Positions 9,174 through 64,000 of a stretch of DNA of 64,000 bases are shown piece by piece. This DNA comes from Candidatus Moanibacter tarae (GTDB lineage Bacteria > Verrucomicrobiota > Verrucomicrobiia > Opitutales > UBA2987). The translations under genes and the position numbers were made by a program. Under the pieces are notes generated by a model. That model did no database searches. It worked only from the letters and a program-made list of their open reading frames with translations, and was not told the DNA's origin. Where the stretch lies: the NCBI GenBank assembly GCA_003226295.1, contig CP029803.1:1481477-1545476 (forward strand), written 5' to 3'. Positions within the stretch are counted from its first letter, which is position 1, and each line of letters starts with the position of its first letter.

Positions 9174-11168
9174 GTGAAACCAGCACCCAAAGGCCTCAAC
9201 AATACGTCGTACCTCTCACTCTATCGGAACATGCAGCTGATTCGACGGTCCGAACTTCGGTTAGCAAGATCTCATCAGCAAGGGCTGGTCCATGGAGCAT
9301 GTCATACCTATGTGGGGGAAGAAGCAATTGCTTGTGGAGTCTGTGCCCACTTGCGCCTGGATGACATTATATTCAGTACTCACCGTGGTCACGGTCACGC
9401 ACTGGCTAAGGGCCTAGAACCAAAAGAGCTGATGGCAGAACTCTATGGCCGCGATACCGGGTGTTCTCGAGGGCGAGGCGGTAGTATGCATTTATTCAAG
9501 CCTGAAATCGGGTTAATGGGAACAAGTGGAATCGTAGGCCCTTGCATCCTACAAGCCTGTGGAGGTGGCTATAGTTTTAAAATCCTAAGAACCGATCAAG
9601 TGGCAGTCGCATTTTTCGGCGACGGTGCAGTTAATAATGGTGCGTTCCACGAAGGCCTCAATATGGCGGCTATTTGGAAGCTCCCGGTCATTTTCGTGTG
9701 TGAGAACAACGAATTCGCCACCGAAGTGGCATTCGAATACGCAAGCGGCATTCCAGACGTTGGACGCCGGGCAAAAAACTATGGATTACCCGGATTTGAA
9801 GTCGATGGGAACGATGTTGCTGAAGTTCATCGGATTGCTGGTGATGCTGTCCAACGAGCCAGGGCGGGCGAAGGAGCCACTCTCATTGAATGCAAGACCT
9901 ACCGCACTCGCGCCCATGCTGAAGGAATGGTCGATTTTACCTATCGGACACGAGATGAAGTGGACAGGTGGAAAACACGCTGTCCAATCGAACGGCTCCG
10001 AAACTCGATCATAGAAAACATTACAGACGCACAATCAGCATTGGACGAAATTGACGAAGAGATTAATGAAATTGTTGATCAATCCCACTCTTTTGCAGAA
10101 AAAAGCGCCTTTCCCGATAGTGCAACTGCAAAGGATCACGTCTATTCGAAGCCAGAAGTCGTTACAGCAACAAAAGAATCTCCCATAGGCACCCGGGAGA
10201 AGACGTACGTCGACGCTACTTTGGAGGCGTTGGATTTTGCCATGGCCCAAGACGAAACAATCTTTGTAATGGGACAAGGAATCGGGAAACGAGGTGGCAA
10301 CTTTGCGACTACTCTTGGATTATTTGATAAATATGGAGCGGATCGTCTGTGTGACACGCCACTTTGTGAGCGAGGATTTGTCGGACTGGGTTGTGGAGCC
10401 GCTGTATCAGGCACACGACCGGTAATTGATTGCATGTTCATTGACTTTATCAACGATTCCTTCGGCGAGCTCGTCAACCAAATCGCAAAAATGCAGTACA
10501 TGAGCAGCGGTCGTTTAAGAGTGCCAATAATTTTGAGAGGTTGTATTGGTGTCGGTCATTCAGCAGCCACCCATCACTCGGGTAGCTACCATTCGATTTA
10601 CGCTCACATTCCCGGCTTACGGGTAGTCCTTCCCTCAACACCCTTTGATGCAAAGGGACTCTTTGCACATGCCCTACGATCTTGGGATCCAGTACTTTTT
10701 CTCGAACACCGAGAACTAATGGCAACGAAAGGTCCCGTTCCTGAGGAATGGTACGAGATACCGTTCGGGGAAGGGGTAGTAGCACAAGAAGGAACGGATG
10801 TCACAGTGGTGGCATTTGCATTGATGTGTCGGCACGCTCTAAAGGCAGCGGAGCGATTGTCCAAAGATCACATATCGGTTGAAGTAATCGACCCACGAAC
10901 TGCTTCGCCTCTCGACCTTGGGATAATTTTGGATTCGGTAAATAAAACGGGACGAATTCTAGTGATAGATGAAGCATTCGGTCCGTGTGGGATCGCTTCA
11001 GAAATTGCAGCACGAGTTTCAGAAAAAGGCTTCAACGACCTAGATGCTCCAGTTAAATGTCTAACTGGAGATTTCACTCCTACCCCGTACAGTCCGAGTC
11101 TCGAAGCCGCAGTAGTACCGAACGTAGATCATATTGAAAACTCAATTCGACAACTAATCAACGAATAG
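9174..11168 (+). CDS. fused E1 alpha/beta subunit of a TPP-dependent 2-oxoacid (pyruvate/acetoin/branched-chain) dehydrogenase
   Basis: N-terminal half carries the E1-alpha TPP motifs (HRGHGH, GDGAVNNGAFHEGLN). C-terminal half carries the E1-beta transketolase-like region (TYVDATLEALDFAMAQDETIFVMGQGIG...). The GTG start overlaps nothing, and the stop overlaps the E2 start. Confidence 0.9.
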   Translation: MKPAPKGLNNTSYLSLYRNMQLIRRSELRLARSHQQGLVHGACHTYVGEEAIACGVCAHLRLDDIIFSTHRGHGHALAKGLEPKELMAELYGRDTGCSRGRGGSMHLFKPEIGLMGTSGIVGPCILQACGGGYSFKILRTDQVAVAFFGDGAVNNGAFHEGLNMAAIWKLPVIFVCENNEFATEVAFEYASGIPDVGRRAKNYGLPGFEVDGNDVAEVHRIAGDAVQRARAGEGATLIECKTYRTRAHAEGMVDFTYRTRDEVDRWKTRCPIERLRNSIIENITDAQSALDEIDEEINEIVDQSHSFAEKSAFPDSATAKDHVYSKPEVVTATKESPIGTREKTYVDATLEALDFAMAQDETIFVMGQGIGKRGGNFATTLGLFDKYGADRLCDTPLCERGFVGLGCGAAVSGTRPVIDCMFIDFINDSFGELVNQIAKMQYMSSGRLRVPIILRGCIGVGHSAATHHSGSYHSIYAHIPGLRVVLPSTPFDAKGLFAHALRSWDPVLFLEHRELMATKGPVPEEWYEIPFGEGVVAQEGTDVTVVAFALMCRHALKAAERLSKDHISVEVIDPRTASPLDLGIILDSVNKTGRILVIDEAFGPCGIASEIAARVSEKGFNDLDAPVKCLTGDFTPTPYSPSLEAAVVPNVDHIENSIRQLINE

Positions 11169-50371: not shown

Positions 50372-51568
50372 CTATTTCTCTCCCTCTCTCCTTCCCAAGT
50401 AAAGGAGTACCAATGCAAAAATTGGGCTTCCCACAGCAGTCAAGGGCAGAATCCAATAGACTTTGCCGAAAACCGAAAGGAGCAGAATAAGATATATAAA
50501 ATCCCGATTACCTAAAGCATCCATGATTTTCGAGATTCTACTCGATCTCGTCCTAACGACGGAGGAAAACGAGGGGATTTCGGTCCGGGCCCAAAACACT
50601 GATTTTCGGTACACTAACCATGCCGTCCACAACACACCTGCAATTGCAATAGCTGTTACGAGCAATGGCCATTTCCCCTGATTTCCAATCCACCATCCAA
50701 TCCCCATACAAAAAAATACAGCAGAATGTACTAAATTATCCCCCCAAAGATCGAGCTTCATACCTATTCGTGACTCCTGAAACCGAAGCCGCGCTAGTTC
50801 CCCATCACATCCGTCAATTATCGCATGAATGAGAAAGAGAAGTGCACCAGTAAATTGATCTATGGCTCGTGCCGAAAGAAAATACGGGCTACTCGATAAC
50901 CCAATTCCAACACTAAAAATTGTCCACAGATTTGGTGAGATTGGCGTCGATACAAGATGCCTAGAAATTGCCAAGGAGATTCGACGATGGAAATGACGGG
51001 CGATAAGGGAATCACTTTTCTTGATCAATCGCTCGAGGAGCCAGCTCTCGGCCTTATCAATCCCTGCGCCACTAGGAATCAAGGTCCGACCTTGATGGTC
51101 TACCTCAAGTAATTCTGTCTCAATCTCTCGATCAAAGACAAGACCTAGATCCTCTTCGCTTCGCCCATATCGGGTCGACGGAAACAATTTTAATGACTTT
51201 TTCGTTTCGATAGCAGCAGCCACCCCAGTGTCACAATAGAGTCGATCTGGTTTCAGTGGTGTCTCCAACAAAGTTTTGAGCCAAGTGGCGTCTGGGAGTA
51301 CACCCCCGACCATGAATACGATCCTCCTGAATCCAGCCAAATCTAACGTCGCATCCAACGATTTAAACTCTACGGTCGTCCCCTCCAGGATTTTTGTCAC
51401 CTCACGGTCCTCTCTCACGGCCACCCAGATGTTGTCAAATCCCGCTCTTTTAGCAGAGAGAACCATCCGGCGAATTAATGGCAATCCAAGTATAGGCTGA
51501 TCCAGTCTAACCGACTCATCTAATTCATCGGGCCAAAGAAAAACAACCAATTGCGATGAAGTCTCCAT
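50372..51568 (-). CDS. two-domain CDP-alcohol phosphatidyltransferase with N-terminal nucleotidyltransferase-like domain (IPCT/DIPPS-like architecture)
   Basis: The C-terminal membrane domain carries an intact D-G-x2-A-R-x8-G-x3-D-x3-D motif (CDGELARLRFQESRIGMKLDLWGD). The roughly 200-aa soluble N-terminal domain has an NTP-transferase-like pattern (PILGLPLIRRMVLSAKRAG) but lacks the Gly-rich loop. The start is taken at METSSQ. Confidence 0.6.
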   Translation of the reverse strand: METSSQLVVFLWPDELDESVRLDQPILGLPLIRRMVLSAKRAGFDNIWVAVREDREVTKILEGTTVEFKSLDATLDLAGFRRIVFMVGGVLPDATWLKTLLETPLKPDRLYCDTGVAAAIETKKSLKLFPSTRYGRSEEDLGLVFDREIETELLEVDHQGRTLIPSGAGIDKAESWLLERLIKKSDSLIARHFHRRISLAISRHLVSTPISPNLWTIFSVGIGLSSSPYFLSARAIDQFTGALLFLIHAIIDGCDGELARLRFQESRIGMKLDLWGDNLVHSAVFFCMGIGWWIGNQGKWPLLVTAIAIAGVLWTAWLVYRKSVFWARTEIPSFSSVVRTRSSRISKIMDALGNRDFIYLILLLSVFGKVYWILPLTAVGSPIFALVLLYLGRREGEK

Positions 51569-51688
51569 CCTAAAGATTAAATCGTAAAGCAACCGCCTTC
51601 AGTTATCCAGATAAACCTTGTCCGTGAAAAGAAGTCGGAAAGGTTGCTTTTTTCTAGACCGCTAAACTCCCACCTAATTCCTATCTAA

Positions 51689-52699
51689 TTAACGGATCTT
51701 TCCTTCATTCTTGAACCAATTGATACTTTCCAAGAGAGATGTACGACAGTCTCGCATGGGCGGCAAATCTAGTTTTTCAGCCGACCGACTACCGTTAAAA
51801 TGTAGAATTCGCTTTGTTAGCTTTACCCCAGTCACAGTGGCCATCGGTAGTTTTCGAGAGTTGAATAGATAGCGAATCCATTCTTCAAAATAGGCAAAAG
51901 TCAGCGCAACGGTATAAGGGATCCGCCGCTGGGGCGCAGGACGATCCACCAGTTTAGAGAGATATCGAAACAAATCGACAATCGTCCAATTCTCGTGGAC
52001 CAGGAGATAGCTCCTTCCCACTTCACCTCTCTGTGCAGCTATCCAGATTCCGGCTGCGACATCCCTAACATCAATAAAGTTAAGATACCCATCGAGATAG
52101 GCCTTAATTCGCCCATTGCAAAAGTCGCAAATCATTCGAGAAGGAGGACCCATGTTCCGATCGCCTGGACCAATTGGAATACTCGGACGGACAATAACTA
52201 CAGGATCGCCGGATTCCGCAGCCTCTCTGGCTGCCTCTTCAGCTAGCCACTTACTCTCACAATAGGGCCCTATCATATCCTCAAAGTCAGTTTGAGTCTC
52301 TTCAGTGATGACACCTTTCATTCCCTTCGGAGATAGTATGGACTCAGTCGAAACATGCACTATCCTCCCGGCTCCTGCTTTTCGCGCAGCCGAAAGCACA
52401 TTTCGAGTCCCTTGGTGATTGACCTGCTCAAACTCCTCTGAGTCTCGTGCCCAGAGATTAGGGTTCGCCGCTAGATGTAAGACCACTTGGCAGCCTTCTG
52501 CCGCATTTTTTACTCCCAAAGGGTCACGAAGATCGACATGAACAATCTCAACCCTATCCGAAGGCAGGTGATGCGTGAGAGCCCCGGGCTTCTCCAGTAC
52601 TCTTACCTCGCAGCCTTCATCCACAAGCATCTTTACAAGATGCGAACCCACAAAACCGGCCCCTCCAGTTACCAATACCTTCCTTTTATTTTCAGCCAC
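51689..52699 (-). CDS. NAD-dependent epimerase/dehydratase (extended SDR; HpnA-like)
   Basis: KVLVTGGAGFVGSHLVKMLVDEGCEV Rossmann motif, the YxxxK context (YCESK), and 336 aa. Confidence 0.8.
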   Translation of the reverse strand: MAENKRKVLVTGGAGFVGSHLVKMLVDEGCEVRVLEKPGALTHHLPSDRVEIVHVDLRDPLGVKNAAEGCQVVLHLAANPNLWARDSEEFEQVNHQGTRNVLSAARKAGAGRIVHVSTESILSPKGMKGVITEETQTDFEDMIGPYCESKWLAEEAAREAAESGDPVVIVRPSIPIGPGDRNMGPPSRMICDFCNGRIKAYLDGYLNFIDVRDVAAGIWIAAQRGEVGRSYLLVHENWTIVDLFRYLSKLVDRPAPQRRIPYTVALTFAYFEEWIRYLFNSRKLPMATVTGVKLTKRILHFNGSRSAEKLDLPPMRDCRTSLLESINWFKNEGKIR

Positions 52700-52732
52700 T
52701 CTCGAAATTAGCTTTCTAGCAAGTAATTCGAT

Positions 52733-53791
52733 TCATTCTCTTATTTCGATTCCAATCCGTGTAATCTCAATAAGCCTATCAAGCACATCCAAAGAGGGTG
52801 CCTGCTGCGTCTTCTCCATGCATTTAATGAAATTAAAAATCGATCGATTGAGAGGAATTTTACGTTCTCCTGCAAGCTCGATCAAATGACCGTTAAAAAA
52901 GTCAATCTCCGTCCGTCCTTTCTCGATATCACCCGCCATCGAACAGTAGGTGTTACGTAGTGAGTTTGCGAAAGGCTTTGCCAGGATCTTCGCTAGAAAG
53001 GGATAATGAAGAATGCGATTCACGGTGTCAGGATGGAAGGGCCCAATGACTCCTAGAGGCACACCTGCAGCCTTAAGGATGCCATAGTTTTCCTGCAAAA
53101 TCCGAAAGAAGAAATCACGGGCCTTTCGAATTGTTAAAAGCTGACCATTATCTAGACCAGCCATCGCCGCCAACGGACTAATGGCGGCATTATACATAAC
53201 CTTACTGTACTTGTAAGGAAGAACATTAGGAACAATCTTCACATTAAAATCACCATGCTTCTTGAGGACGTCTAACACCCTTATGAATTTCCCTTGAATT
53301 TCCCTCTTATTGTATTCTCCCCATTGGCCAATGTGGAGGTCTCCTCTCCTCGTAATTCGGGTCTGGGTCTTGTCCGGAAGGCATTCGGAAACAAATGATG
53401 CAATTCCTTCTAAGTTACTGCGTTCCATTAATTCTGAATCGAATCCATTCTGGATCGGCAGCACCCCTGCTGATTTAGGTAATCGCTTAAGAATAGATGC
53501 ATTCTCAAAACATTTCGTACAAAGAATGACAACACACGTATCCGAAGGCTTCCACTCCTCGAAGCAAACAAACTTGGCTGATAATAACGAACGATTATCC
53601 AACCCAATTCCATTACGACTACCCCATTCTAGTTTTCGTCGATCGACTTCGACAAACGTTACATCGAACCCGCCGGAAATGAGAGCATACCCTACCGCGC
53701 AGCCAATGCCTCCAGCCCCAACTATATAGATTTCCACGGAACTTTCACTGGGACCTCTGGTCGAACAACTCCAAATTGATCGTCCTTCCAC
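52733..53791 (-). CDS. 2-dehydropantoate 2-reductase (ApbA/PanE) family oxidoreductase
   Basis: IYIVGAGGIGCAVGYAL dinucleotide fold at the N-terminus and a KPR-like C-terminal helical domain. The true start is probably near 53734, which gives about 330 aa. Confidence 0.65.
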   Translation of the reverse strand: MEGRSIWSCSTRGPSESSVEIYIVGAGGIGCAVGYALISGGFDVTFVEVDRRKLEWGSRNGIGLDNRSLLSAKFVCFEEWKPSDTCVVILCTKCFENASILKRLPKSAGVLPIQNGFDSELMERSNLEGIASFVSECLPDKTQTRITRRGDLHIGQWGEYNKREIQGKFIRVLDVLKKHGDFNVKIVPNVLPYKYSKVMYNAAISPLAAMAGLDNGQLLTIRKARDFFFRILQENYGILKAAGVPLGVIGPFHPDTVNRILHYPFLAKILAKPFANSLRNTYCSMAGDIEKGRTEIDFFNGHLIELAGERKIPLNRSIFNFIKCMEKTQQAPSLDVLDRLIEITRIGIEIRE

Positions 53792-56641: not shown

Positions 56642-57631
56642 TTAGTTAGACCTAGTTCTCAATAATTGCTGACTTTCCACAATCTGCCATAGCAGTAGCG
56701 CAGGAATTCCAAAAAGGAGGGTACGGGCTCGAACCAAAAGAGCGAGCGCAAGTCCAGTTTCAGGACCTAGGCCGAGGGCCGTTCCTAGAACCATGAAACC
56801 ACCCTCCTGAACACCTAGAGCACCAGGAATAAAAAACACGGCATTGCGTACCGCATGCGTCATGCTTTCAAGCATTATAGCTTCGATTATACCAATTGGA
56901 TGACCGAGAAAATGAAGACCGATTAGAATCTGACCAGTCCCTAAAAAGACCCCCATCATGCGCCAGAACACTGCATAAAAGAGATCCCTTTTTTTCTGAT
57001 AGAGCTTATCTAGGGCTGTATCCAAGGCCTTTGCACCCCCTGTAACACTCTGCCAGTTTGCCACTTTTACGATCTTCTCAATGCGTTGTGCTAGGCGTGA
57101 AAACATTCCCCAGCGTTGAGCAATGTAGAACCCCATAACGCACAACAAAAACAAAGAAATCCCACCGATCGCAGCATGGGCAGTTTCCCCAAATCCGTAG
57201 TAATAGATGAAGAAAGCTATACCCAAAATAACGAAAATCGACTGAGAAGCGATCGCCAAAGTCACGTCGACGATGACGCTCGCACCAGCCTCGGAACTCC
57301 GAGATCCCCTAAGAGAAGCCAATCTAACCCTAAGCAACTCGCCTCCCACCTGAGCAACTGGCAATAGACTGTTTGCGGAAGTTCCCACCCACCGAATCCA
57401 ACAAACGGAGACGAATGAAGGCCGTCCCGCTGCACCCAATAAAATCCACCAACAAATAGCACTGGCCGAGAATGGGATTACACTGTAGGCTACCATTGCA
57501 AGCAGTCCCCACCCAGACTGAACGAGGGCCTCGGCCACCTTTCCGAATCCCTGAATCACAACCAATCCAAGCATCAATGCTATACCGATCAGCCAGAGTA
57601 GGATAGTGAAAATACGCATCGTAAACCTCAA
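56642..57631 (-). CDS. UPF0104 / lysylphosphatidylglycerol-synthase-TM-region (flippase-like, HpnL-like) membrane protein
   Basis: About 8 TM helices and 329 aa. The N-terminus MRIFTILLWLIGIALMLGLVVIQGFGKVAEAL, the conserved positions and the length fit the LPG_synthase_TM-only family. Confidence 0.65.
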   Translation of the reverse strand: MRFTMRIFTILLWLIGIALMLGLVVIQGFGKVAEALVQSGWGLLAMVAYSVIPFSASAICWWILLGAAGRPSFVSVCWIRWVGTSANSLLPVAQVGGELLRVRLASLRGSRSSEAGASVIVDVTLAIASQSIFVILGIAFFIYYYGFGETAHAAIGGISLFLLCVMGFYIAQRWGMFSRLAQRIEKIVKVANWQSVTGGAKALDTALDKLYQKKRDLFYAVFWRMMGVFLGTGQILIGLHFLGHPIGIIEAIMLESMTHAVRNAVFFIPGALGVQEGGFMVLGTALGLGPETGLALALLVRARTLLFGIPALLLWQIVESQQLLRTRSN

Positions 57632-57935: not shown

Positions 57936-58451
57936 TTGATCCAAAGACTCTTCAAACTAATCCACCTCTTCCCCTCAATACCCATGCAACCCCATAACTG
58001 GAAGATCTCTTCGATATACTGTTCTATAGCCCTAGTTTCTTATTCCCAAGTCTGCGGCGTGAATTTAGCAGAGGGAAAACTGCTCTCCGGCACACTCAGT
58101 ATTCAGATCTCCGGATTGCGAAGCAAAAAAGGAACACTCAGGATCGGTCTATTTAATTCTAAGGAGACATTCTCCAAGAGAGGGAAAGCTCTTCGCTCAG
58201 CGGTAGTGAAACCGAATTCAAGAAAGGTCGAAACCAGCTTTAAGGAACTACCCTACGGAAATTACGCTATTTCCCTCTACCACGACGAGAACGACAATGA
58301 CAAATACAACCTAGGCCTTGTACTGTTTTCACGCGAGCGCTACGGGTTTTCCAACAATGTAAAACCCGGTCTCAGGGGACCCCCGTCCTTCGAAGCCGCG
58401 ATGTTCCTAATGAACTCAGATGAGAAAGTCGTAACAATAAAATTACATTAG
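57936..58451 (+). CDS. DUF2141-like secreted protein
   Basis: Signal-peptide-like start. GTLRIGLFNSKETF and YHDENDNDKYNLGLVLFSRERYGFSNN match the DUF2141 consensus pattern as I recall it. Confidence 0.5.
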   Translation: MIQRLFKLIHLFPSIPMQPHNWKISSIYCSIALVSYSQVCGVNLAEGKLLSGTLSIQISGLRSKKGTLRIGLFNSKETFSKRGKALRSAVVKPNSRKVETSFKELPYGNYAISLYHDENDNDKYNLGLVLFSRERYGFSNNVKPGLRGPPSFEAAMFLMNSDEKVVTIKLH

Positions 58452-58472: not shown

Positions 58473-59492
58473 CTAGTCCATTTTTCGCCACTCATCGAAA
58501 GCCGAAGTGGTACGGACACAACCCACAGTGCAGGTTTTGTTGCAAAATTTTGGTGTATGGAACTGCTCTCGAAGGTCATCATGAGTATAGTCCATTAAAT
58601 TCTTGGAGAATATTCCCCGAGTTTGAGAGCACCAGTGGACGATTCCGAATTCGTCTATGTAGAGATAACGTGCTCCAGCCCGACATTTGAATGGAGCAAC
58701 TCCGTCTCGAATAAGTTTTTCCCTGTAACGATCAGCATCCTCCAACCTCGGACCAATCATCTGTTTGACCTCTCGATAGGCTGCCAACTCTTCCGTATTT
58801 AACCGCAATTGGCCGTTAGAATCATGAATAAGGAGGATTCGTGGAACAAAACCTCGGTCCCTGGCAAATCGAACCACCTCTACTGCTTCTTCAGGAGGCG
58901 CACTTCCAATCACACCGCTCATCACCACTTTGAATCGGGCATGTTTGCTTAATAGTTCGAGTTTCTTTCGGAGTGGCTGGAGCGTCTTTACAGTGATCTT
59001 ATTCGGCTTTACTCCATCGACGCTAATCTGCATATCAGTCAACCCACTAACATTGAGAGATTCTATGAGTTCTTCGGTAAGCCGATACCCATTAGTAATC
59101 ATCAGCCGCCGCCGTACACCAAGGGCTTTCAACTCGCTAATGAGGCCCGGTAAATCAGGGTGGAGCGTCGGCTCTCCTCCAGTTAGGCAAACCGCCCAGG
59201 TTTTTAGTTGGCGTAATTTTCTGAACCGACTGATCAAGACTTCCGATGCTATCGGCTCCGAGGTCTTATCGAATTCCGAACAGTAAGTACAAGAGAGATT
59301 GCAGCGCCGGACAATGACGATTTGCGCTAGGAACGGTCCGTATCGGATCCATTGAAAAGAGCTCAAATTACGGCCAGCCATACTATCTGGCGACACCTCT
59401 GCATACTCTTCTCTTCCTCCACTGGACGAATGCTTGTCCTTCTTCTCCTTCTCTATCAAGGACTTTATCCCCCAATTGAATCTGCCAGCCAT
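58473..59492 (-). CDS. radical SAM enzyme with C-terminal auxiliary Cys cluster
   Basis: CNLSCTYC (CxxxCxxC) followed by GGEPTL. The C-terminal cysteines (FKCRAG...HWCSQ...FCNKTCTVGC) suggest a SPASM/twitch-like second cluster. Convergent with DUF2141 and co-directional with dxs. Confidence 0.75.
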   Translation of the reverse strand: MAGRFNWGIKSLIEKEKKDKHSSSGGREEYAEVSPDSMAGRNLSSFQWIRYGPFLAQIVIVRRCNLSCTYCSEFDKTSEPIASEVLISRFRKLRQLKTWAVCLTGGEPTLHPDLPGLISELKALGVRRRLMITNGYRLTEELIESLNVSGLTDMQISVDGVKPNKITVKTLQPLRKKLELLSKHARFKVVMSGVIGSAPPEEAVEVVRFARDRGFVPRILLIHDSNGQLRLNTEELAAYREVKQMIGPRLEDADRYREKLIRDGVAPFKCRAGARYLYIDEFGIVHWCSQTRGIFSKNLMDYTHDDLREQFHTPKFCNKTCTVGCVRTTSAFDEWRKMD

Positions 59493-59576: not shown

Positions 59577-61493
59577 TTAATGGGCCAATGTCGCCCTTTC
59601 ACGAGGCACAGAAATTTGGTTCAAGCGCTTCAGGATACGATTGAAGATCGAATTATTGTCGAGGTCGTTAACAGCACGTAGATCACCGACAGAACTCCCA
59701 TGATCAACAAAACGGTCAGGCCATCCAACAATCTCAACAGGAATTTCACAGGAGGACTCATTGAGAGCTTCCAAGACAGAGGAACCAAAGCCTCCTTTTG
59801 AAACATGATCTTCTATTGTCACGATCAGTTCCATCTTACTGGCGTGCTGCATAAGAAGCTCAAGATCGATTGGTTTAGCGAACCTGGCATTGACTACACC
59901 GGCTGAAATCCCTTCTTCAACTTCCAATCGATCCGCTAATTTGAGAGCTTCCTGAACCCAAGGACCTAGAGCCCAAAAAACAAGCTCTTTCCCCTCCCTT
60001 AGAACCTCGGCCTTGCCAATATCAATATATTGGGGGTCATCTTTTATAGTCACACCTGAAGCCTCCCCACGCGGATAACGAACAAAAGTCGGATCGGATG
60101 TATAAAGGCTCGTCCAAAGCATGTCCACTAATTCGTCTTCGTCCTTGGGCTGCATCACAACCGTACCCGGTATGCATCGTAAATAAGCTATATCGAAAAG
60201 ACCATGATGAGTCGGACCGTCCTGGGGAGATAGTCCAGCCCGGTCCATACAAAATGTCACTGGAAGGTTTTGGACGCCAACATCGTGAATGATCGGATCG
60301 TAGGCCCGCTGCAGCATTGTTGAGTAGATGGCACAAACCGGTCGAAATCCTTGGGTCGCTAATCCAGCCGCAAACAGCACAGCATGCTCTTCCGCCATCC
60401 CCACATCAAAAAATTGTTTTGGGGAGGCTTCGCGCAGCATATTCAAACTGGTTCCCGCCGACATAGCAGCCGTTATTCCCACCACTTTCGAGTCCTCTTT
60501 TGCAAATCGGACCATAGCCCTCCCAAAAACGTCCTGAAATTTGGGCGGACCTCCTGGTTTTCCCGGCTTGCTCTTACCTGTTGTAATATTAAAGGGGCTC
60601 GGACCATGGAATTTTTCCGGATCTTTCAACGCCGGTTCGTAACCCTTTCCTTTTGTGGTCATGATGTGGAGAACAACCGGACGGTCACAATTCTTACAGA
60701 ATTCGAGGTAGTGGGTAACCGCTTCTAGATCATTCCCCTCAATTGGACCAAGGTAGCGCAGTCCGTAGTTTTCGAAAAGTGACGATGGTACAAACAACTC
60801 TTTGGCCTCTTTTTTTGCCTTTTTCCCGATTTTTATAAGGGATTCACCACCAGGCAATTTTTCCAGGAACTTACTGACATCCTGATCGATACGGTTGTAA
60901 ATTGGATTGGTGATCAACTCATTGAGATACTTTGATATAGCCCCAACATTCGGCGAGATAGACCACTTGTTGTCATTTATTACGACGATGAGCCGCTTAG
61001 TGTGAATCGCCACATTATTAAGGGCTTCCATAGTGATTCCACAGGTTAATCCCGCATCGCCAACCACGGCTACAACGTGCTCATCACTCCCTCTGATATC
61101 TCGTGCCACCGCCATTCCAATAGCAGCGGAAAGCCCGGTTCCTGCATGCCCCGCACCATAACTGTCGTGAGCACTCTCCGTTCGACAGAGGAAACCACTT
61201 ACCCCCCCCGTCATCCGAATATTCTTAAAACCGTCTCCTTGCCGTCCAGTTAGAAGCTTGTGGACATAGCCCTGATGGGAAACATCAAAAGTGAATTTGT
61301 CTCGCGGGGAGTCGAACACCCGGTGCAAGGCAAGAGTGAGTTCTACCACTCCCAGATTGGGGCCCAAATGACCCCCATTCACAGACGTTACTTCGATAAG
61401 TTCTTCACGGATTTCATCAGCTAACTTAACCAACTCGTGCTGAGTAAGCTTTCTAATATCCGAGGGTTCATTTATTTCATGTAGGATTGCCAT
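59577..61493 (-). CDS. dxs: 1-deoxy-D-xylulose-5-phosphate synthase
   Basis: N-terminal GGHLGPNLGVVELTLALHRVF, the TPP motif GDAGLTCGITMEALNNV, and a transketolase-like C-terminal. 638 aa. Confidence 0.92.
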   Translation of the reverse strand: MAILHEINEPSDIRKLTQHELVKLADEIREELIEVTSVNGGHLGPNLGVVELTLALHRVFDSPRDKFTFDVSHQGYVHKLLTGRQGDGFKNIRMTGGVSGFLCRTESAHDSYGAGHAGTGLSAAIGMAVARDIRGSDEHVVAVVGDAGLTCGITMEALNNVAIHTKRLIVVINDNKWSISPNVGAISKYLNELITNPIYNRIDQDVSKFLEKLPGGESLIKIGKKAKKEAKELFVPSSLFENYGLRYLGPIEGNDLEAVTHYLEFCKNCDRPVVLHIMTTKGKGYEPALKDPEKFHGPSPFNITTGKSKPGKPGGPPKFQDVFGRAMVRFAKEDSKVVGITAAMSAGTSLNMLREASPKQFFDVGMAEEHAVLFAAGLATQGFRPVCAIYSTMLQRAYDPIIHDVGVQNLPVTFCMDRAGLSPQDGPTHHGLFDIAYLRCIPGTVVMQPKDEDELVDMLWTSLYTSDPTFVRYPRGEASGVTIKDDPQYIDIGKAEVLREGKELVFWALGPWVQEALKLADRLEVEEGISAGVVNARFAKPIDLELLMQHASKMELIVTIEDHVSKGGFGSSVLEALNESSCEIPVEIVGWPDRFVDHGSSVGDLRAVNDLDNNSIFNRILKRLNQISVPRERATLAH

Positions 61494-61783
61494 TATTGAA
61501 ATAACGATGGTTAGTCTCGGACAAACTGATTCCTGTGTTGATTCAGCGTACGGGCACTCTCAAATTCATCCGGGAAAAAAACGAGAATCCAACTCCAATC
61601 CCACAGTTCAATTGGTCAGTGGTGACACAATTAAGATCGTAGGGAAATGGTTAAATACCTTATTGCCATATTGCAACCACTTTTCGATTATCAAAATTTC
61701 ATATATTCTGTATAATCTGATTTCCATTTTTACCCAAATGAAGCGCTCCTAGATTGCAGAGCATTAACCTGGTTCTCCCTTCA

Positions 61784-63034
61784 ATGATAGCGATAATTTA
61801 TAAGTTCCCCGGGGATGCCTGGGTTCAACTTGGTGGAATGTCCGTCCTTGAGCGGAACCTGCGGTCGCTCGATAAAATCAACATTGAAAAAGTACGAATC
61901 GTCCTTCCTCCCGGAGAGTATCCACCAACGATATCCATTCCAAGGCCCCTCGGAATAAAACAAGAGATTGTCCACGAAAAACTAGTCGAGAATAACCTAC
62001 TTTCTACGTTAGGAGTGGCATTCCCAAAGAATTCCGAGTCTGCGTTGATCTTTCACGCTAACTTACTAACAGACCCCAGGATTTTTATCTTCTTAGCAGG
62101 CTTGAACTGTGCATTTTTTTCCCTAGATCCAGACGCAACAACACCGCAAAAAAATTGGAGGATCGCCCTACTAAGATTTAAAGACCTGGAAAAGGTGGAT
62201 GAACTGTGGGAAAAGGTAGATCTAATAACTCAAAACGATATAGCCAGCTATGACACCGAAGTCCGCGGGGAAGTCGATCCTTACTGTCTAGGTATAAATA
62301 GTCCCGAAAAACTGCACCAAGGCTGGGAGATCCTCATACGGAGATCGCAGAAACGGCCAGGTGATTTCATTGAGAAATACGTCCATCCCGACATACAAAA
62401 CTGGATTGTCAAAAGGATCTGCGACACCTCGATAACTCCGAATCAGATCTCTTTCATTGTCATCGCCTGCGCTGTAGCTGGCGCAATCCTATTCTATCAT
62501 GGACTTTTTCTTATCGCATGGATTTTGGCATTTTCAGCAACAATACTTGACGGCGTAGATGGCAAACTCGCACGTGTTAAACTGATGACTTCCAAGCTTG
62601 GTAAGTTTGAGCATATTTTTGATTACTTTGGTGAAAACGCTTGGTACCTCTGTCTAGCAAGAAATCTTGCTCTTACCTCCGGGCCCTCTGCATGGCTCTG
62701 TGGTATTGCCATTTCAGCCTGCGACACCGTGGATCGAATTATTGCCGCCTTCTTTGAAAAAAGAATGAAAATAACGCTTGACGAATATTCACTGTTCGAC
62801 CGCGACTTTCGACTGATTGGGGGCCGCAAAACCATATACCTTTTTTTCCTTCTGGTCGGTTTTTTTTCCGACTCCCTCTATTCTGCTCTTAAAATTTCAT
62901 TAGCCTGGGCAATCTTCACTGTCTTCATACACGCAACCAGAAGCTTCTGGCATTTCCGGAGAGCACCAAGGGTTGGTACCATCTCAGCCATACCTGAACA
63001 GGCCAAGTCTTCTTCAGATGGAACGGGGACATAG
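61784..63034 (+). CDS. second two-domain CDP-alcohol phosphatidyltransferase paralog with degenerate catalytic motif
   Basis: Same architecture as the gene at 50372-51568, with an N-terminal NTP-transferase-like soluble domain (IAIIYKFPGDAWVQLGGMSVLERNL). The membrane domain carries DGKLARVKLMTSKLGKFEHIFD, where the first conserved Asp of G-x3-D-x3-D is His and the second Asp is shifted. Start at the internal ATG. Confidence 0.55.
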   Translation: MIAIIYKFPGDAWVQLGGMSVLERNLRSLDKINIEKVRIVLPPGEYPPTISIPRPLGIKQEIVHEKLVENNLLSTLGVAFPKNSESALIFHANLLTDPRIFIFLAGLNCAFFSLDPDATTPQKNWRIALLRFKDLEKVDELWEKVDLITQNDIASYDTEVRGEVDPYCLGINSPEKLHQGWEILIRRSQKRPGDFIEKYVHPDIQNWIVKRICDTSITPNQISFIVIACAVAGAILFYHGLFLIAWILAFSATILDGVDGKLARVKLMTSKLGKFEHIFDYFGENAWYLCLARNLALTSGPSAWLCGIAISACDTVDRIIAAFFEKRMKITLDEYSLFDRDFRLIGGRKTIYLFFLLVGFFSDSLYSALKISLAWAIFTVFIHATRSFWHFRRAPRVGTISAIPEQAKSSSDGTGT

Positions 63035-63365: not shown

Positions 63366-64000
63366 CTAGTTACTACGTCGCGAGCGCAGAAGATAGTAAG
63401 AAGGCAGTATGATCAAGGTCGTGGTCATGGTAAGGAAGACTCCCAGACAAAGCAACTGGCCAAGACTAGCGGTACCTCGATGAGAGAGAAACATGAGCGT
63501 GCCAAAACTAAACATAGTCGTGAGCCCGCTGAAAAGGACACCTCTAGCAGTACTAGTGTGTAGAAAGTCTGTATTCGTACCGGAGATGCTCCGCATGCGA
63601 TGGACCATATGGATACCATTATCAACTCCTAGTCCAAGAAGAAGAGGCAGGGCTATTATATTGGCAAAGTTAAAGGATGCTCCCATGAGAACAGTCGCAG
63701 CGCCGGTGAAGAGACCAGCAACAAGCAAGGGGATCAAGACGAGAAGGGGTTCCGCCCAATTCCTAAAGATGGCTATCAATAGTACCGTAATAAGTAATAA
63801 GGCACTGAGAAAAGCCTGTTTAAAAGAATAGACAATGGTCCTCCCCGCTTCATATGTAAATATGGGACCCGAAGTTGCATTGGAAGCAACCGTCCTTACT
63901 TCATTGACGAAGCGGATTAAGGCTTCATTTTCGGATATGTTAAGGTTTGAAAAAACTTGGATCCGAAAGCGTTCGTTTTCGCTAATCCAACGGTCGCGAA
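63366..64000 (-). CDS. MMPL/RND-superfamily transporter, C-terminal portion (HpnN-like); gene continues beyond window end
   Basis: The reading frame stays open from the window edge to the stop at 63366. The translation (…FVNEVRTVASNATSGPIFTYEAGRTIVYSFKQAFLSALLLITVLLIAIFRNWAEPLLVLIPLLVAGLFTGAATVLMGASFNFANIIALPLLLGLGVDNGIHMVHRMRS…) is the characteristic last TM bundle of MMPL/RND exporters. The ORF track's 137-aa call begins at an internal TTG. Confidence 0.65.
   Translation of the reverse strand, partial: RDRWISENERFRIQVFSNLNISENEALIRFVNEVRTVASNATSGPIFTYEAGRTIVYSFKQAFLSALLLITVLLIAIFRNWAEPLLVLIPLLVAGLFTGAATVLMGASFNFANIIALPLLLGLGVDNGIHMVHRMRSISGTNTDFLHTSTARGVLFSGLTTMFSFGTLMFLSHRGTASLGQLLCLGVFLTMTTTLIILPSYYLLRSRRSN

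What the first reader, a model, noticed from the sequence alone, without database searches (positions are those of the whole stretch)
61754..63034. Second paralog of the two-domain CDP-alcohol phosphotransferase with substituted catalytic aspartates
The window holds two copies of this rare architecture about 10 kb apart. In this copy the motif reads DGKLAR-x8-G-KFE-H-IFD. The first Asp of the G-x3-D-x3-D metal-binding pair is His and the second is displaced by one residue. That points to neofunctionalisation, such as altered metal or alcohol specificity, or to a non-catalytic regulatory or scaffold paralog. The gene is divergently transcribed from dxs, and an HpnN-like exporter converges on its 3' end.
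Basis: seen in the sequence. Interest (0 to 1): 0.75.

Follow-up and report, generated by a model that had tools for sequence, protein, structure and literature searches.

The report
Variant-motif CDP-alcohol phosphotransferase, not a dead enzyme
The gene is real, but its catalytic motif is only shifted by one residue, with a Glu in place of one Asp, and this is the conserved hallmark of a widespread, uncharacterised enzyme subfamily that travels with a flippase-like membrane protein and a radical-SAM enzyme in lipid gene clusters.

Summary
The ORF, the motif string, the second copy about 10 kb away, the divergent dxs and the convergent HpnN all check out. The reading "His replaces the first Asp, and the second Asp is displaced" is an artefact of assuming fixed spacing. 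Every alignment tried (BLASTP, phmmer, profile against four PDB enzymes, hhalign) places a one-residue gap after the Gly. The motif is therefore D-x2-D-G-x2-A-R-x8-G-x2-E-x3-D, with Glu276 at D3, Asp280 at D4 and His277 as a neighbouring residue. This is not peculiar to this genome. Relatives occur at 363 loci among GTDB species representatives. Of the best 80, 75 keep G-x2/3-E-x3-D-x3-E. In 54 of 58 loci with enough flank, an HpnL-like membrane protein and/or a related radical-SAM gene lies nearby, and 25 also carry a canonical paralog. Sister Opitutales carry inositol-phosphate synthase and an IPCT-like cytidylyltransferase next to it. The N-terminal domain has a nucleotidyltransferase fold but lacks the GxGxR loop, so the deposited name "bifunctional IPCT/DIPPS" is unsupported. 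The gene is under purifying selection (dN/dS 0.18). It is most likely an active phospho-alcohol transferase in an exported-lipid head-group pathway. The substrates are unknown.

The parts
61784..63034 (+). Gene for a 416-aa two-domain protein (the ORF is open from TTG 61754). It has an N-terminal nucleotidyltransferase-like domain and a C-terminal six-helix CDP-alcohol phosphotransferase domain.
   Evidence: AlphaFold model: pLDDT 90.3. Foldseek top hits over the full length are 4mnd (IPCT-DIPPS) and 4o6m (AF2299).
61784..62353 (+). N-terminal cytosolic domain (about residues 1-190). It has a nucleotidyltransferase fold but lacks the GxGxR loop and the Lys signature.
   Evidence: 16 of 62 family members hit PF12804. 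Only P0063 keeps AAGRGSRL...KPL. The DIPPS 'AGLGTRL' loop is an insertion relative to the family profile. Foldseek hits to IspD, RmlA and GMPP cover this half.
62438..62452 (+). P-N-Q-I-S (residues 219-223). This is the P(D/N)xx(T/S) cytosine-binding motif at the start of TM1.
   Evidence: T218, P219 and N220 are invariant in the 62-sequence alignment. The motif's role is taken from PMC4634129.
62549..62575 (+). D256-G-V-D259-G-K-L-A-R264. This is the first half of the signature on TM2 (D1, D2, G1, A, R).
   Evidence: All are invariant in the family. They align to DGCDGE[IL]AR of DIPPS, AF2299 and paralog 1.
62600..62635 (+). G273-K-F-E276-H277-I-F-D280-Y-F-G-E284. This is the second half of the signature on TM3, with a spacer of 2 instead of 3, Glu at D3, Asp at D4 and family-specific His277 and Glu284.
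   Evidence: G273, H277 and D280 are invariant, and E276 and E284 are at least 90% conserved, in 62 sequences. 75 of the 80 best genomic relatives keep G-x2/3-E-x3-D-x3-E. The helix starts at residue 273 in the model.
62795..62830 (+). F-D-R-D-F-R343-L-I-G-G-R348-K. This is a conserved Arg-rich motif between TM4 and TM5 and is the likely acceptor or phosphate-binding site (inferred).
   Evidence: R343 and R348 are invariant and R349 is nearly invariant. The motif aligns with the P-G-K-R-D-E-R region of DIPPS.
58473..59492 (-). Radical-SAM partner (339 aa) with a SPASM/twitch-like C-terminal Cys pattern.
   Evidence: An ortholog (43% identity) lies next to the family member in the Arenicellales locus. 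Related rSAM genes lie within 8 kb in 28 of 58 loci and are adjacent in 12. The best PDB hit is 7tol, the GDGT/macrocyclic archaeol synthase, over the core only.
56642..57631 (-). HpnL-family (LPG_synthase_TM, flippase-like) membrane protein.
   Evidence: TIGR03476 scores 310 bits against a cut-off of 196. An HpnL-like gene lies within 1.5 kb of the family member in 42 of 58 loci and often overlaps it.
50372..51592 (-). Canonical two-domain paralog (DGCDGELAR-x8-G-x3-D-x3-DNxVH). It sits with HpnA-like (51689..52699) and ApbA-like (52733..53791) genes.
   Evidence: The same ApbA-epimerase-paralog trio is found in Tistlia. A canonical partner lies within 8 kb of the variant type in 25 of 58 loci.
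59577..61493 (-). dxs, divergent from the gene. It is kept inside the cluster in the Opitutales relatives.
63366..64000 (-). 3' end of the HpnN-family RND lipid exporter (877 aa in full), convergent with the gene. An HpnG-like nucleosidase lies beyond it.
   Evidence: The frame is open to the window end. The full protein scores 915.7 bits on TIGR03480 against a cut-off of 751.85.

Best explanation
The gene encodes a catalytically competent member of an old, widespread and uncharacterised subfamily of AF2299/DIPPS-like two-domain CDP-alcohol phosphotransferases. The subfamily's signature is D-x2-D-G-K-L-A-R-x8-G-x2-E-x3-D-x3-E. Glu276 takes the metal-ligand position D3. Asp280 is the catalytic base D4. 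His277 is a neighbouring residue conserved in most of the subfamily and is not a replacement for Asp.

The N-terminal domain keeps a nucleotidyltransferase fold but has lost the GxGxR loop, so it probably binds a ligand or regulates rather than making the CDP-alcohol.

The enzyme works as part of a conserved module. The module comprises an HpnL-like flippase-type membrane protein, a ~330-aa radical-SAM enzyme and often a canonical-motif paralog. In the Opitutales it sits among dxs, HpnN, and HpnA-like and HpnG-like genes.

The inferred mechanism has three steps. At the cytosolic face the enzyme transfers a phospho-alcohol head group from a CDP-activated donor to a hydroxyl acceptor, making a polar membrane lipid. 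The donor is most likely CDP-inositol or a related CDP-polyol. The HpnL-like protein then flips the lipid, and the RND pump exports it.

Shown here: the motif register, the conservation, the fold, the gene neighbourhoods and purifying selection. Inferred: catalytic activity, the donor, the acceptor and the lipid product. The confidence of 0.6 is for the whole statement. The register and 'conserved variant, not a lesion' part alone is about 0.95, and the CDP-inositol donor in this particular organism is about 0.35.
For: Motif register:
- all place a one-residue gap, giving E276=D3 and D280=D4.
- Relatives with G-x3-[DE]-H-x2-D spacing bridge the two forms.

Conservation:
- D256, G257, D259, G260, A263, R264, G273, H277, D280 and T218-P219-N220 are invariant.
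- E276 and E284 are at least 90% conserved.
- 75 of 80 genomic relatives are intact, and the D3 position is Glu in all 75.

Fold and selection:
- The model has pLDDT 90.3.
- The best PDB matches are IPCT-DIPPS and AF2299 over the full length.
- dN/dS is 0.18.

Module:
- HpnL-like or rSAM genes lie nearby in 54 of 58 loci, and a canonical partner in 25 of 58.
- The rSAM and the family member overlap start to stop in a Methylomirabilota locus.
- A sister clade that lost E/D4 has also lost both partners at a syntenic site (L007 versus L005).

Donor clue:
- MIPS plus an IPCT-like NTP transferase lie directly beside the ortholog in sister Opitutales (L017/L027, L019, L023, L024) and in several Desulfobacterota.
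- The canonical family sits with a MIPS::NTP-transferase fusion in L012.

Lipid and export clue:
- HpnN passes its cut-off.
- An LPG-synthase-like gene is also a companion of Bacteroides inositol-lipid clusters (PMC9246714).
- An Arenicellales locus places two family members inside a serine-palmitoyltransferase cluster.
Against: - No enzyme of this subfamily has been assayed.
- The literature calls the eight signature residues 'absolutely conserved' (PMC4634129), so D3-to-Glu with a shortened spacer could reduce or alter activity.
- Six-TM CDP-alcohol phosphotransferases are described as using soluble acceptors, which fits a solute product as well as a lipid product.
- No MIPS or cytidylyltransferase gene was found for M. 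tarae itself. There is none in the window, none in the 8 kb beyond it, no M. tarae contig among the top 80 metagenome loci and none among the top 120 MIPS proteins.
- In this genome HpnL and the rSAM gene are 4.1 and 2.3 kb away, not adjacent.
- No shc or hpnH lies in the window. The HpnA-like and HpnG-like proteins score below their curated cut-offs, so the hopanoid link rests on HpnN and HpnL family membership and on context.
Confidence: 0.6

Rival explanations
1. It is a DIPP-synthase-like enzyme that makes a soluble inositol-phosphodiester compatible solute, such as di-myo-inositol phosphate or glycero-phospho-inositol, from CDP-inositol and a phosphorylated polyol.
For: The best curated-family and PDB similarities are to IPCT/DIPPS. 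The six-TM architecture is typical of enzymes with soluble acceptors. The conserved Arg-rich motif aligns with the DIPPS P-G-K-R-D-E-R region. MIPS and IPCT-like genes lie beside orthologs.
Against: The NF041135 score is 61 bits against a cut-off of 580. The consistent partners are membrane and lipid proteins (HpnL-like, RND exporters, rSAM, an Spt cluster), not solute genes. By my own knowledge DIP-type solutes are known from (hyper)thermophiles, whereas this family is common in mesophilic marine and soil lineages. No MIPS was found for M. tarae.
Confidence: 0.12
2. It is a CDP-diacylglycerol-dependent (or other CDP-lipid-dependent) phospholipid synthase, of the PIP-synthase or cardiolipin-synthase type, that uses a soluble alcohol as acceptor.
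For: It has PIPS-like fold matches and profile hits. The conserved Arg residues could bind an inositol-phosphate acceptor as they do in PIPS. A published speculation holds that AF2299-like long-N-terminus proteins of Iodidimonas and Emcibacterales could act as cardiolipin synthases (PMC10411912).
Against: Similarity to PIPS is much weaker than to DIPPS and AF2299 (E 2e-7 versus 1e-22). A dedicated IPCT-like cytidylyltransferase next to orthologs points to a CDP-inositol donor rather than CDP-DAG. There is no experimental support.
Confidence: 0.15
3. One reading: the catalytic Asp pair is disrupted (His at D3, D4 displaced), so the protein is a non-catalytic regulatory or scaffold paralog.
For: Read with fixed G-x3-D-x3-D spacing, His and Tyr fall on the Asp positions. 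The Pfam score is weak at 34 bits. A related clade really has lost the acidic residues.
Against: All alignments restore E-x3-D with a one-residue gap. All other signature residues are invariant. Purifying selection is seen. The truly degenerate clade is distinguishable and has lost the partner genes, whereas this gene keeps both the motif and the partners.
Confidence: 0.05

Closest known systems
AF2299 (Archaeoglobus fulgidus; PDB 4o6m, 4o6n, 4q7c)
   Same: It shares the two-domain architecture: a nucleotidyltransferase-like cytosolic domain without the catalytic loop, followed by a six-TM CDP-alcohol phosphotransferase. It is the best single-sequence PDB hit (E 5e-10), scores E 2e-22 with the profile, and gives Foldseek TM 0.63-0.80. 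It also has an acidic stripe D-x3-D-x3-D on TM3, compared with E-x3-D-x3-E here. Its physiological substrates are likewise unknown (own knowledge).
   Different: AF2299 has the canonical G-x3-D-x3-D and DGCDGEIAR. The present family has G-x2-E, Lys instead of Glu two residues after D2, and His after the D3 position. Identity is only about 14%.
Bifunctional IPCT/DIPPS (A. fulgidus AF0263, PDB 4mnd; NCBIfam NF041135). This is the name under which the protein is deposited.
   Same: Homology and fold extend over the full length (profile positions 3-411 against residues 41-451, E 1e-22; Foldseek E 3e-14). In sister genomes the gene sits beside MIPS and an IPCT-like gene.
   Different: The N-terminal GxGxR loop and Lys are missing. 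The score is 61 bits against a cut-off of 580. The signature is a variant. The genomic partners are lipid and membrane genes.
Putative CDP-inositol ('alternative') inositol-lipid cluster of Bacteroides vulgatus and Prevotella (Heaver et al. 2022, PMC9246714)
   Same: It follows the same logic: MIPS, an NTP transferase that makes CDP-inositol, a CDP-alcohol phosphatidyltransferase and a nearby LPG-synthase-like membrane protein. The same combination is seen around orthologs in Opitutales and Desulfobacterota.
   Different: The Bacteroidetes pathway is itself unconfirmed. It was found with the canonical DX2DGX2AR...GX3DX3D pattern, and the paper mentions neither a radical-SAM partner nor an N-terminal NTP-transferase-like domain. 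M. tarae lacks the adjacent MIPS and NTP genes.
Paralog 1 in this window (50372..51592) and its family
   Same: It has the same two-domain architecture (hhalign probability 99.7%, 353 columns) and also has HpnL-like and MIPS contexts.
   Different: It has the canonical motif DGCDGELAR-x8-G-x3-D-x3-DNxVH. It is 24% identical over 131 residues. It travels with ApbA-like and HpnA-like genes.

Membership tests
CDP-alcohol phosphotransferase superfamily (Pfam PF01066) | Match to the family HMM above the curated gathering score | tested here: met
   34 bits against a cut-off of 22, residues 228-320 of the 426-aa ORF. All 62 aligned relatives match.
CDP-alcohol phosphotransferase superfamily (Pfam PF01066) | Strict signature D1xxD2G1xxAR...G2xxxD3xxxD4 with eight 'absolutely conserved' residues (PMC4634129) | tested here: not met
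   Seven of the eight are present. D3 is Glu276 and the G2-D3 spacer is 2, not 3. This is a family-wide variant and not a lesion.
CDP-alcohol phosphotransferase superfamily (Pfam PF01066) | Six-TM fold with the signature split between TM2 and TM3, and a P(D/N)xx(T/S) motif at TM1 | tested here: met
   The model has helices 219-239, 242-265, 273-299, 302-328, 337-361 and 365-393. Foldseek matches DIPPS, AF2299 and PIPS. P219-N-Q-I-S223 is invariant.
CDP-alcohol phosphotransferase superfamily (Pfam PF01066) | Metal-dependent transfer of a phospho-alcohol from a CDP-linked donor | not testable with these tools
   This needs enzyme assays.
Bifunctional IPCT/DIPPS (NF041135; the deposited annotation) | Equivalog score of at least 580 bits | tested here: not met
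   61.3 bits, C-terminal half only.
Bifunctional IPCT/DIPPS (NF041135; the deposited annotation) | Catalytic cytidylyltransferase signature (GxGxR loop, Lys) in the N-terminal domain | tested here: not met
   The loop is absent from the query and from 61 of 62 relatives. The DIPPS AGLGTRL is an insertion relative to the family profile.
Bifunctional IPCT/DIPPS (NF041135; the deposited annotation) | Inositol-1-phosphate supply (MIPS) in the same genome | tested here: inconclusive
   MIPS is adjacent in sister genomes. None was found for M. tarae in the window, in the flank, or in the top hits of two searches. The whole genome could not be read.
Variant-motif subfamily defined here (DGVDGKLAR...G-x2-E-x3-D-x3-E) | Signature intact, including K261, E276, D280 and E284 | tested here: met
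Variant-motif subfamily defined here (DGVDGKLAR...G-x2-E-x3-D-x3-E) | HpnL-like (PF03706) and/or related ~330-aa radical-SAM gene in the neighbourhood | tested here: met
   HpnL is 4.1 kb away and the rSAM gene 2.3 kb away in this window and in L015/L016. Across the family, 54 of 58 loci have one or the other.
Hopanoid (hpn) biosynthesis cluster | Curated hpn family members and the cyclase or HpnH in the locus | tested here: inconclusive
   HpnN (915.7 > 751.85) and HpnL (310 > 196) pass. The HpnA-like (314 < 368) and HpnG-like (165 < 187) proteins fall short. No shc or hpnH was seen in the parts of the window scanned.

The most novel reading that the evidence does not exclude
The variant-motif transferase, its radical-SAM partner and the HpnL-like protein form an undescribed three-component pathway. 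The pathway would install a phospho-cyclitol or phospho-polyol head group on an outer-membrane lipid, and the radical-SAM enzyme may remodel that head group. The lipid would be a hopanoid or other isoprenoid in Opitutales and a sphingolipid in Arenicellales. The canonical paralog would do a separate step. If true, this would give HpnL, and perhaps HpnA, their first biochemical context. It would also define a natural CDP-alcohol phosphotransferase that uses Glu at the D3 metal site.
Probability: 0.2. Interest if true: 0.75.

Novelty: new variant of a known kind. Interest (0 to 1): 0.4.

Why it matters
The headline claim, that the catalytic aspartates are replaced, does not hold. That result should stop this gene being listed as a pseudoenzyme.

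Three things remain useful.
- A large, phylogenetically broad subfamily breaks the 'eight absolutely conserved residues' rule of CDP-alcohol phosphotransferases in a consistent way: Glu at D3 and a spacer one residue shorter. Motif-based searches such as PHI-BLAST with GX3DX3D will miss it.
- The subfamily is tightly linked to HpnL-like proteins, whose function is an acknowledged open question in hopanoid biology, and to an uncharacterised radical-SAM enzyme. This gives a concrete, testable gene set.
- The public annotation 'bifunctional IPCT/DIPPS' on both paralogs is wrong in its bifunctional part.

Tried and rejected
- Fixed-spacing reading of the motif: rejected after four kinds of alignment.
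- Alternative register D280-x3-E284 as D3/D4, which needs a three-residue insertion and is suggested by 'FDYFGEN' against 'LDLWGDN': rejected. No alignment method chose it, and relatives with G-x3 spacing support the one-residue register.
- Sequencing error or pseudogene: rejected (conserved orthologs; dN/dS 0.18).
- Recent duplication: rejected (24% identity; both types co-occur across phyla).
- Search for MIPS or an IPCT-like gene in M. tarae: tblastn of the window found none. A protein search showed no M. tarae entry in the top 120. This is a weak negative and does not prove absence.
- Search for shc or other hpn genes in the rest of the window: only housekeeping genes were found among the ten large ORFs scanned.
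- Literature searches found no description of this subfamily or module. The terms tried were HpnL; CDP-alcohol + radical SAM + hopanoid; AF2299; CDP-inositol; and hopanoid + inositol + phosphatidyltransferase. The AF2299 structure paper itself was not held.
- Model coordinates are not exposed, so the geometry of the E276/D280 carboxylates relative to D256/D259 could not be measured.
- The apparent 137-aa truncation of HpnN in the ORF list is a listing quirk. The frame is open to the window end.
Full report
**What is in the sequence**

An ORF runs from 61754 to 63034 on the + strand. The deposited protein is identical from ATG 61784 (P0001, 416 aa, Candidatus Moanabacter tarae, Verrucomicrobia). 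Every homolog begins M-x-A-[IV] at that point, so 61784 is the likely start. I number residues from there.

Pfam recognises a CDP-OH_P_transf domain at 34 bits against a cut-off of 22. A second two-domain gene with a canonical DGCDGELAR-x8-G-x3-D-x3-D lies at 50372..51592 on the - strand. dxs is divergent. An RND gene converges on the 3' end, and its full-length product passes the HpnN TIGRFAM cut-off at 915.7 against 751.85. The descriptive part of the finding is therefore correct.

**The motif register**

The claim that His sits on the first Asp of G-x3-D-x3-D, and that the second Asp is displaced, depends on assuming a fixed spacer. Four kinds of alignment all insert a single-residue gap right after the Gly:
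- BLASTP against paralog 1;
- phmmer against AF2299;
- a 62-sequence family profile against DIPPS, AF2299 and two PIP synthases;
- profile-profile hhalign between the two paralog families, at probability 99.7% over 353 columns.

This gap aligns Glu276 with D3 and Asp280 with D4. Some family members have the canonical spacer (GDRLDHxLD, GGILEHFCD, GDRYEHILD) and bridge the two forms.

In the AlphaFold model (pLDDT 90.3) the TM3 helix starts at G273. E276, D280 and E284 therefore lie on one helical face, which parallels the D-x3-D-x3-D of AF2299. According to PMC4634129, D1 to D3 bind the metal and D4 is the catalytic base, and a P(D/N)xx(T/S) motif on TM1 binds the cytosine. That motif is present here as P219-N-Q-I-S223. 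Seven of the eight signature residues are kept, and D3 is a conservative Glu.

**Conservation**

In an alignment of 62 relatives the invariant residues are D256, G257, D259, G260, A263, R264, G273, H277, D280, T218-P219-N220, R343 and R348. E276, E284, K261 and W287 are at least 90% conserved.

A scan of one genome per GTDB species found 363 loci encoding relatives with DGVDGKLAR. The taxa include Opitutales, Methylomirabilota, Myxococcota, Desulfobacterota, Binatia, Entotheonella, Planctomycetota, Rokubacteria, Latescibacterota, Arenicellales and Emcibacter.

Among the best 80 loci:
- 75 have G-x2/3-E-x3-D-x3-E, with 71 at x2 and 4 at x3.
- The D3 position is Glu in all 75.
- The next residue is His in 48, Asp in 10, Cys in 7, Ser in 7 and another residue in 3.

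The His is thus a clade feature rather than a universal one. The gene is under purifying selection, with dN/dS of 0.18 against an 89%-identical ortholog. Sequencing error, a pseudogene and a recent lesion are excluded.

**The N-terminal domain and the public name**

Foldseek matches the whole chain to IPCT-DIPPS (4mnd) and AF2299, and matches the N-terminal half to IspD, RmlA and GMPP-type nucleotidyltransferases. Of the 62 relatives, 16 hit PF12804.

The GxGxR loop and the following Lys are absent from the query and from all relatives but one. In the profile alignment the DIPPS 'AGLGTRL' appears as an insertion. The NCBIfam IPCT/DIPPS equivalog scores 61 bits against a cut-off of 580. The deposited name 'Bifunctional IPC transferase and DIPP synthase' is given to both paralogs. 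It is therefore unsupported in its bifunctional part.

**Genomic company**

In M. tarae and close relatives the order is HpnL-like, DUF2141, radical SAM and dxs on one side, this gene in the middle, and HpnN and an HpnG-like gene on the other.

Across 58 intact loci with at least 3 kb of flank on each side:

| Neighbour | Loci (of 58) |
|---|---|
| HpnL-like (PF03706) gene within 1.5 kb, often overlapping | 42 |
| Related ~330-aa radical-SAM gene within 8 kb | 28 (adjacent in 12) |
| HpnL-like or radical-SAM gene | 54 |
| Canonical-motif two-domain paralog | 25 |
| HpnN-like RND gene | 16 |
| IPCT-like NTP transferase | 11 |
| MIPS | 9 |

Further context:
- The M. tarae rSAM protein is 43% identical to the one beside an Arenicellales family member.
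- In sister Opitutales (L017/L027, L019, L023, L024) MIPS and an NTP transferase sit directly next to the ortholog. That NTP transferase best matches the IPCT half of NF041135. L024 also carries a bona fide HpnA (490 against 368), HpnN and an HpnG-like gene.
- In Arenicellales two family members, each with its own rSAM gene, lie inside a cluster with serine palmitoyltransferase and an RND pump.
- The canonical family recurs as an ApbA-epimerase-transferase trio in Tistlia, as in this window. It also recurs with a MIPS::NTP-transferase fusion, a short CDP-OH transferase and an LPG_synthase_TM gene.

**A natural control**

A sister clade, 38-43% identical, has lost D4, which is now Gly, Lys, Asn or Ala, and in most members the Glu at D3 as well. 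None of the three such loci with enough flank has an HpnL-like, rSAM, MIPS, NTP, RND or canonical-paralog neighbour. One of them (L007) is syntenic with an intact Methylomirabilota locus (L005) but lacks exactly the rSAM and HpnL-like genes, plus an encapsulin pair. Loss of the partners and decay of the acidic residues go together. This argues that E276 and D280 are functional in intact members such as this gene, and that the three genes work together.

**Most likely function**

I conclude that this is an active CDP-alcohol phosphotransferase of a variant subfamily. It probably transfers a phospho-polyol head group in the synthesis of a polar membrane lipid, which the HpnL-like protein then flips and the HpnN-type pump exports. 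The donor is CDP-inositol where MIPS and IPCT are adjacent.

The same logic was proposed, without confirmation, for the 'alternative' inositol-lipid cluster of Bacteroides and Prevotella, which also has an LPG-synthase-like neighbour (PMC9246714).

The role of the radical-SAM partner is unknown. Its core is closest to the archaeal tetraether/macrocyclic archaeol synthase (7tol, E 3e-10; NCBIfam Tes). It also has a C-x12-G-x4-C ... C-x3-C-x3-C tail that I read as SPASM/twitch-like (direct reading of the sequence). Either lipid-tail chemistry or cyclitol chemistry is conceivable.

**Caveats**

- No member of the subfamily has been assayed.
- Six-TM enzymes of this superfamily are described as using soluble acceptors, so a DIPPS-like solute product is a live rival.
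- I could not find MIPS or a cytidylyltransferase for M. tarae itself. The donor in this organism is therefore open.
- The hopanoid link rests on HpnN and HpnL family membership and on context. The HpnA-like and HpnG-like proteins are sub-threshold here, and no cyclase was seen in the window.

**Literature**

Two recent hopanoid studies state that the functions of HpnL and HpnA are unknown. One paper notes AF2299-like long-N-terminus transferases in Iodidimonas and Emcibacterales and speculates that they act in cardiolipin synthesis. In the held library I found no description of the variant motif or of the transferase, rSAM and HpnL module.

**Verdict**

The specific 'substituted catalytic aspartates' claim is an alignment artefact. 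The gene nonetheless belongs to a coherent, uncharacterised subfamily with a consistently remodelled signature and a conserved set of partners. I rate it a new variant of a known kind, with moderate interest of 0.4.

Noticed in passing
Loci L007/L008, L020, L025, L026, L028, L032 (proteins P0016, P0019, P0022, P0023, P0026, P0028-P0037): A sister clade of the subfamily has lost the catalytic Asp (D4 is now Gly, Lys, Asn or Ala) and in most members the Glu at D3. It has also lost the rSAM and HpnL-like neighbours. L007 is syntenic with the intact locus L005. These may be genuine pseudoenzymes or relics.
   Followed up: partly
window 50372-51592 (-) and 61784-63034 (+): Both paralogs are deposited as 'Bifunctional IPC transferase and DIPP synthase'. 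Neither has the cytidylyltransferase GxGxR loop, and both score far below the NCBIfam cut-off (61 and 74.5 bits against 580).
   Followed up: yes
window 58473-59492 (-): A 339-aa radical-SAM protein is conserved with the subfamily. Its core is closest to the archaeal tetraether/macrocyclic archaeol synthase (PDB 7tol, NCBIfam Tes). Its C-terminus carries a SPASM/twitch-like Cys pattern. No curated family claims it.
   Followed up: partly
window 50372-53791 (-); locus L014 5837-9194: The three-gene unit of an ApbA/PanE-like reductase, an HpnA-like epimerase/dehydratase and the canonical two-domain transferase is conserved between this verrucomicrobium and an alphaproteobacterium (Tistlia). This suggests a separate head-group sub-pathway.
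   Followed up: no
L009 / L084 (Arenicellales MAG chromosome OZ244194.1, about 1.93 Mb): A sphingolipid-type cluster holds an HpnA/OleD-like reductase, serine palmitoyltransferase, an unknown 373-aa protein and an RND pump. It also contains two subfamily members, one with G-x2-E-H and one with canonical-spacing G-x3-D-H, each beside its own radical-SAM gene.
   Followed up: partly
L012 4368-6248: A single 626-aa protein fuses myo-inositol-1-phosphate synthase to an NTP-transferase domain. It sits next to a short CDP-OH transferase, an LPG_synthase_TM gene and a paralog-1-type gene.
   Followed up: no
window 9174-11168 (+): A 664-aa ORF matches the pyruvate dehydrogenase E1 alpha subunit in its first half and the E1 beta subunit in its second half, so it appears to be a fused E1 alpha-beta gene. 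An E2 gene follows it.
   Followed up: no
window 61507-61752 (+): An 81-aa ORF fills the dxs-transferase intergenic region. It is called as a gene in one public assembly (L001) but not in another (L002). It has no family hit and is probably spurious. A TTATCA-17-TATAAT promoter-like site lies inside it at 61688-61716.
   Followed up: no
window 57936-58451 (+): A DUF2141 protein is conserved between the HpnL-like and radical-SAM genes in all the Opitutales loci examined (L015, L016, L019, L023, L024). Its function is unknown.
   Followed up: no
window 63366-64000 (-): The ORF list shows a 137-aa ORF for the HpnN C-terminus, but the reading frame is open to the end of the window. The gene is intact (877 aa) in the public contig, so this is not a truncation.
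   Followed up: yes
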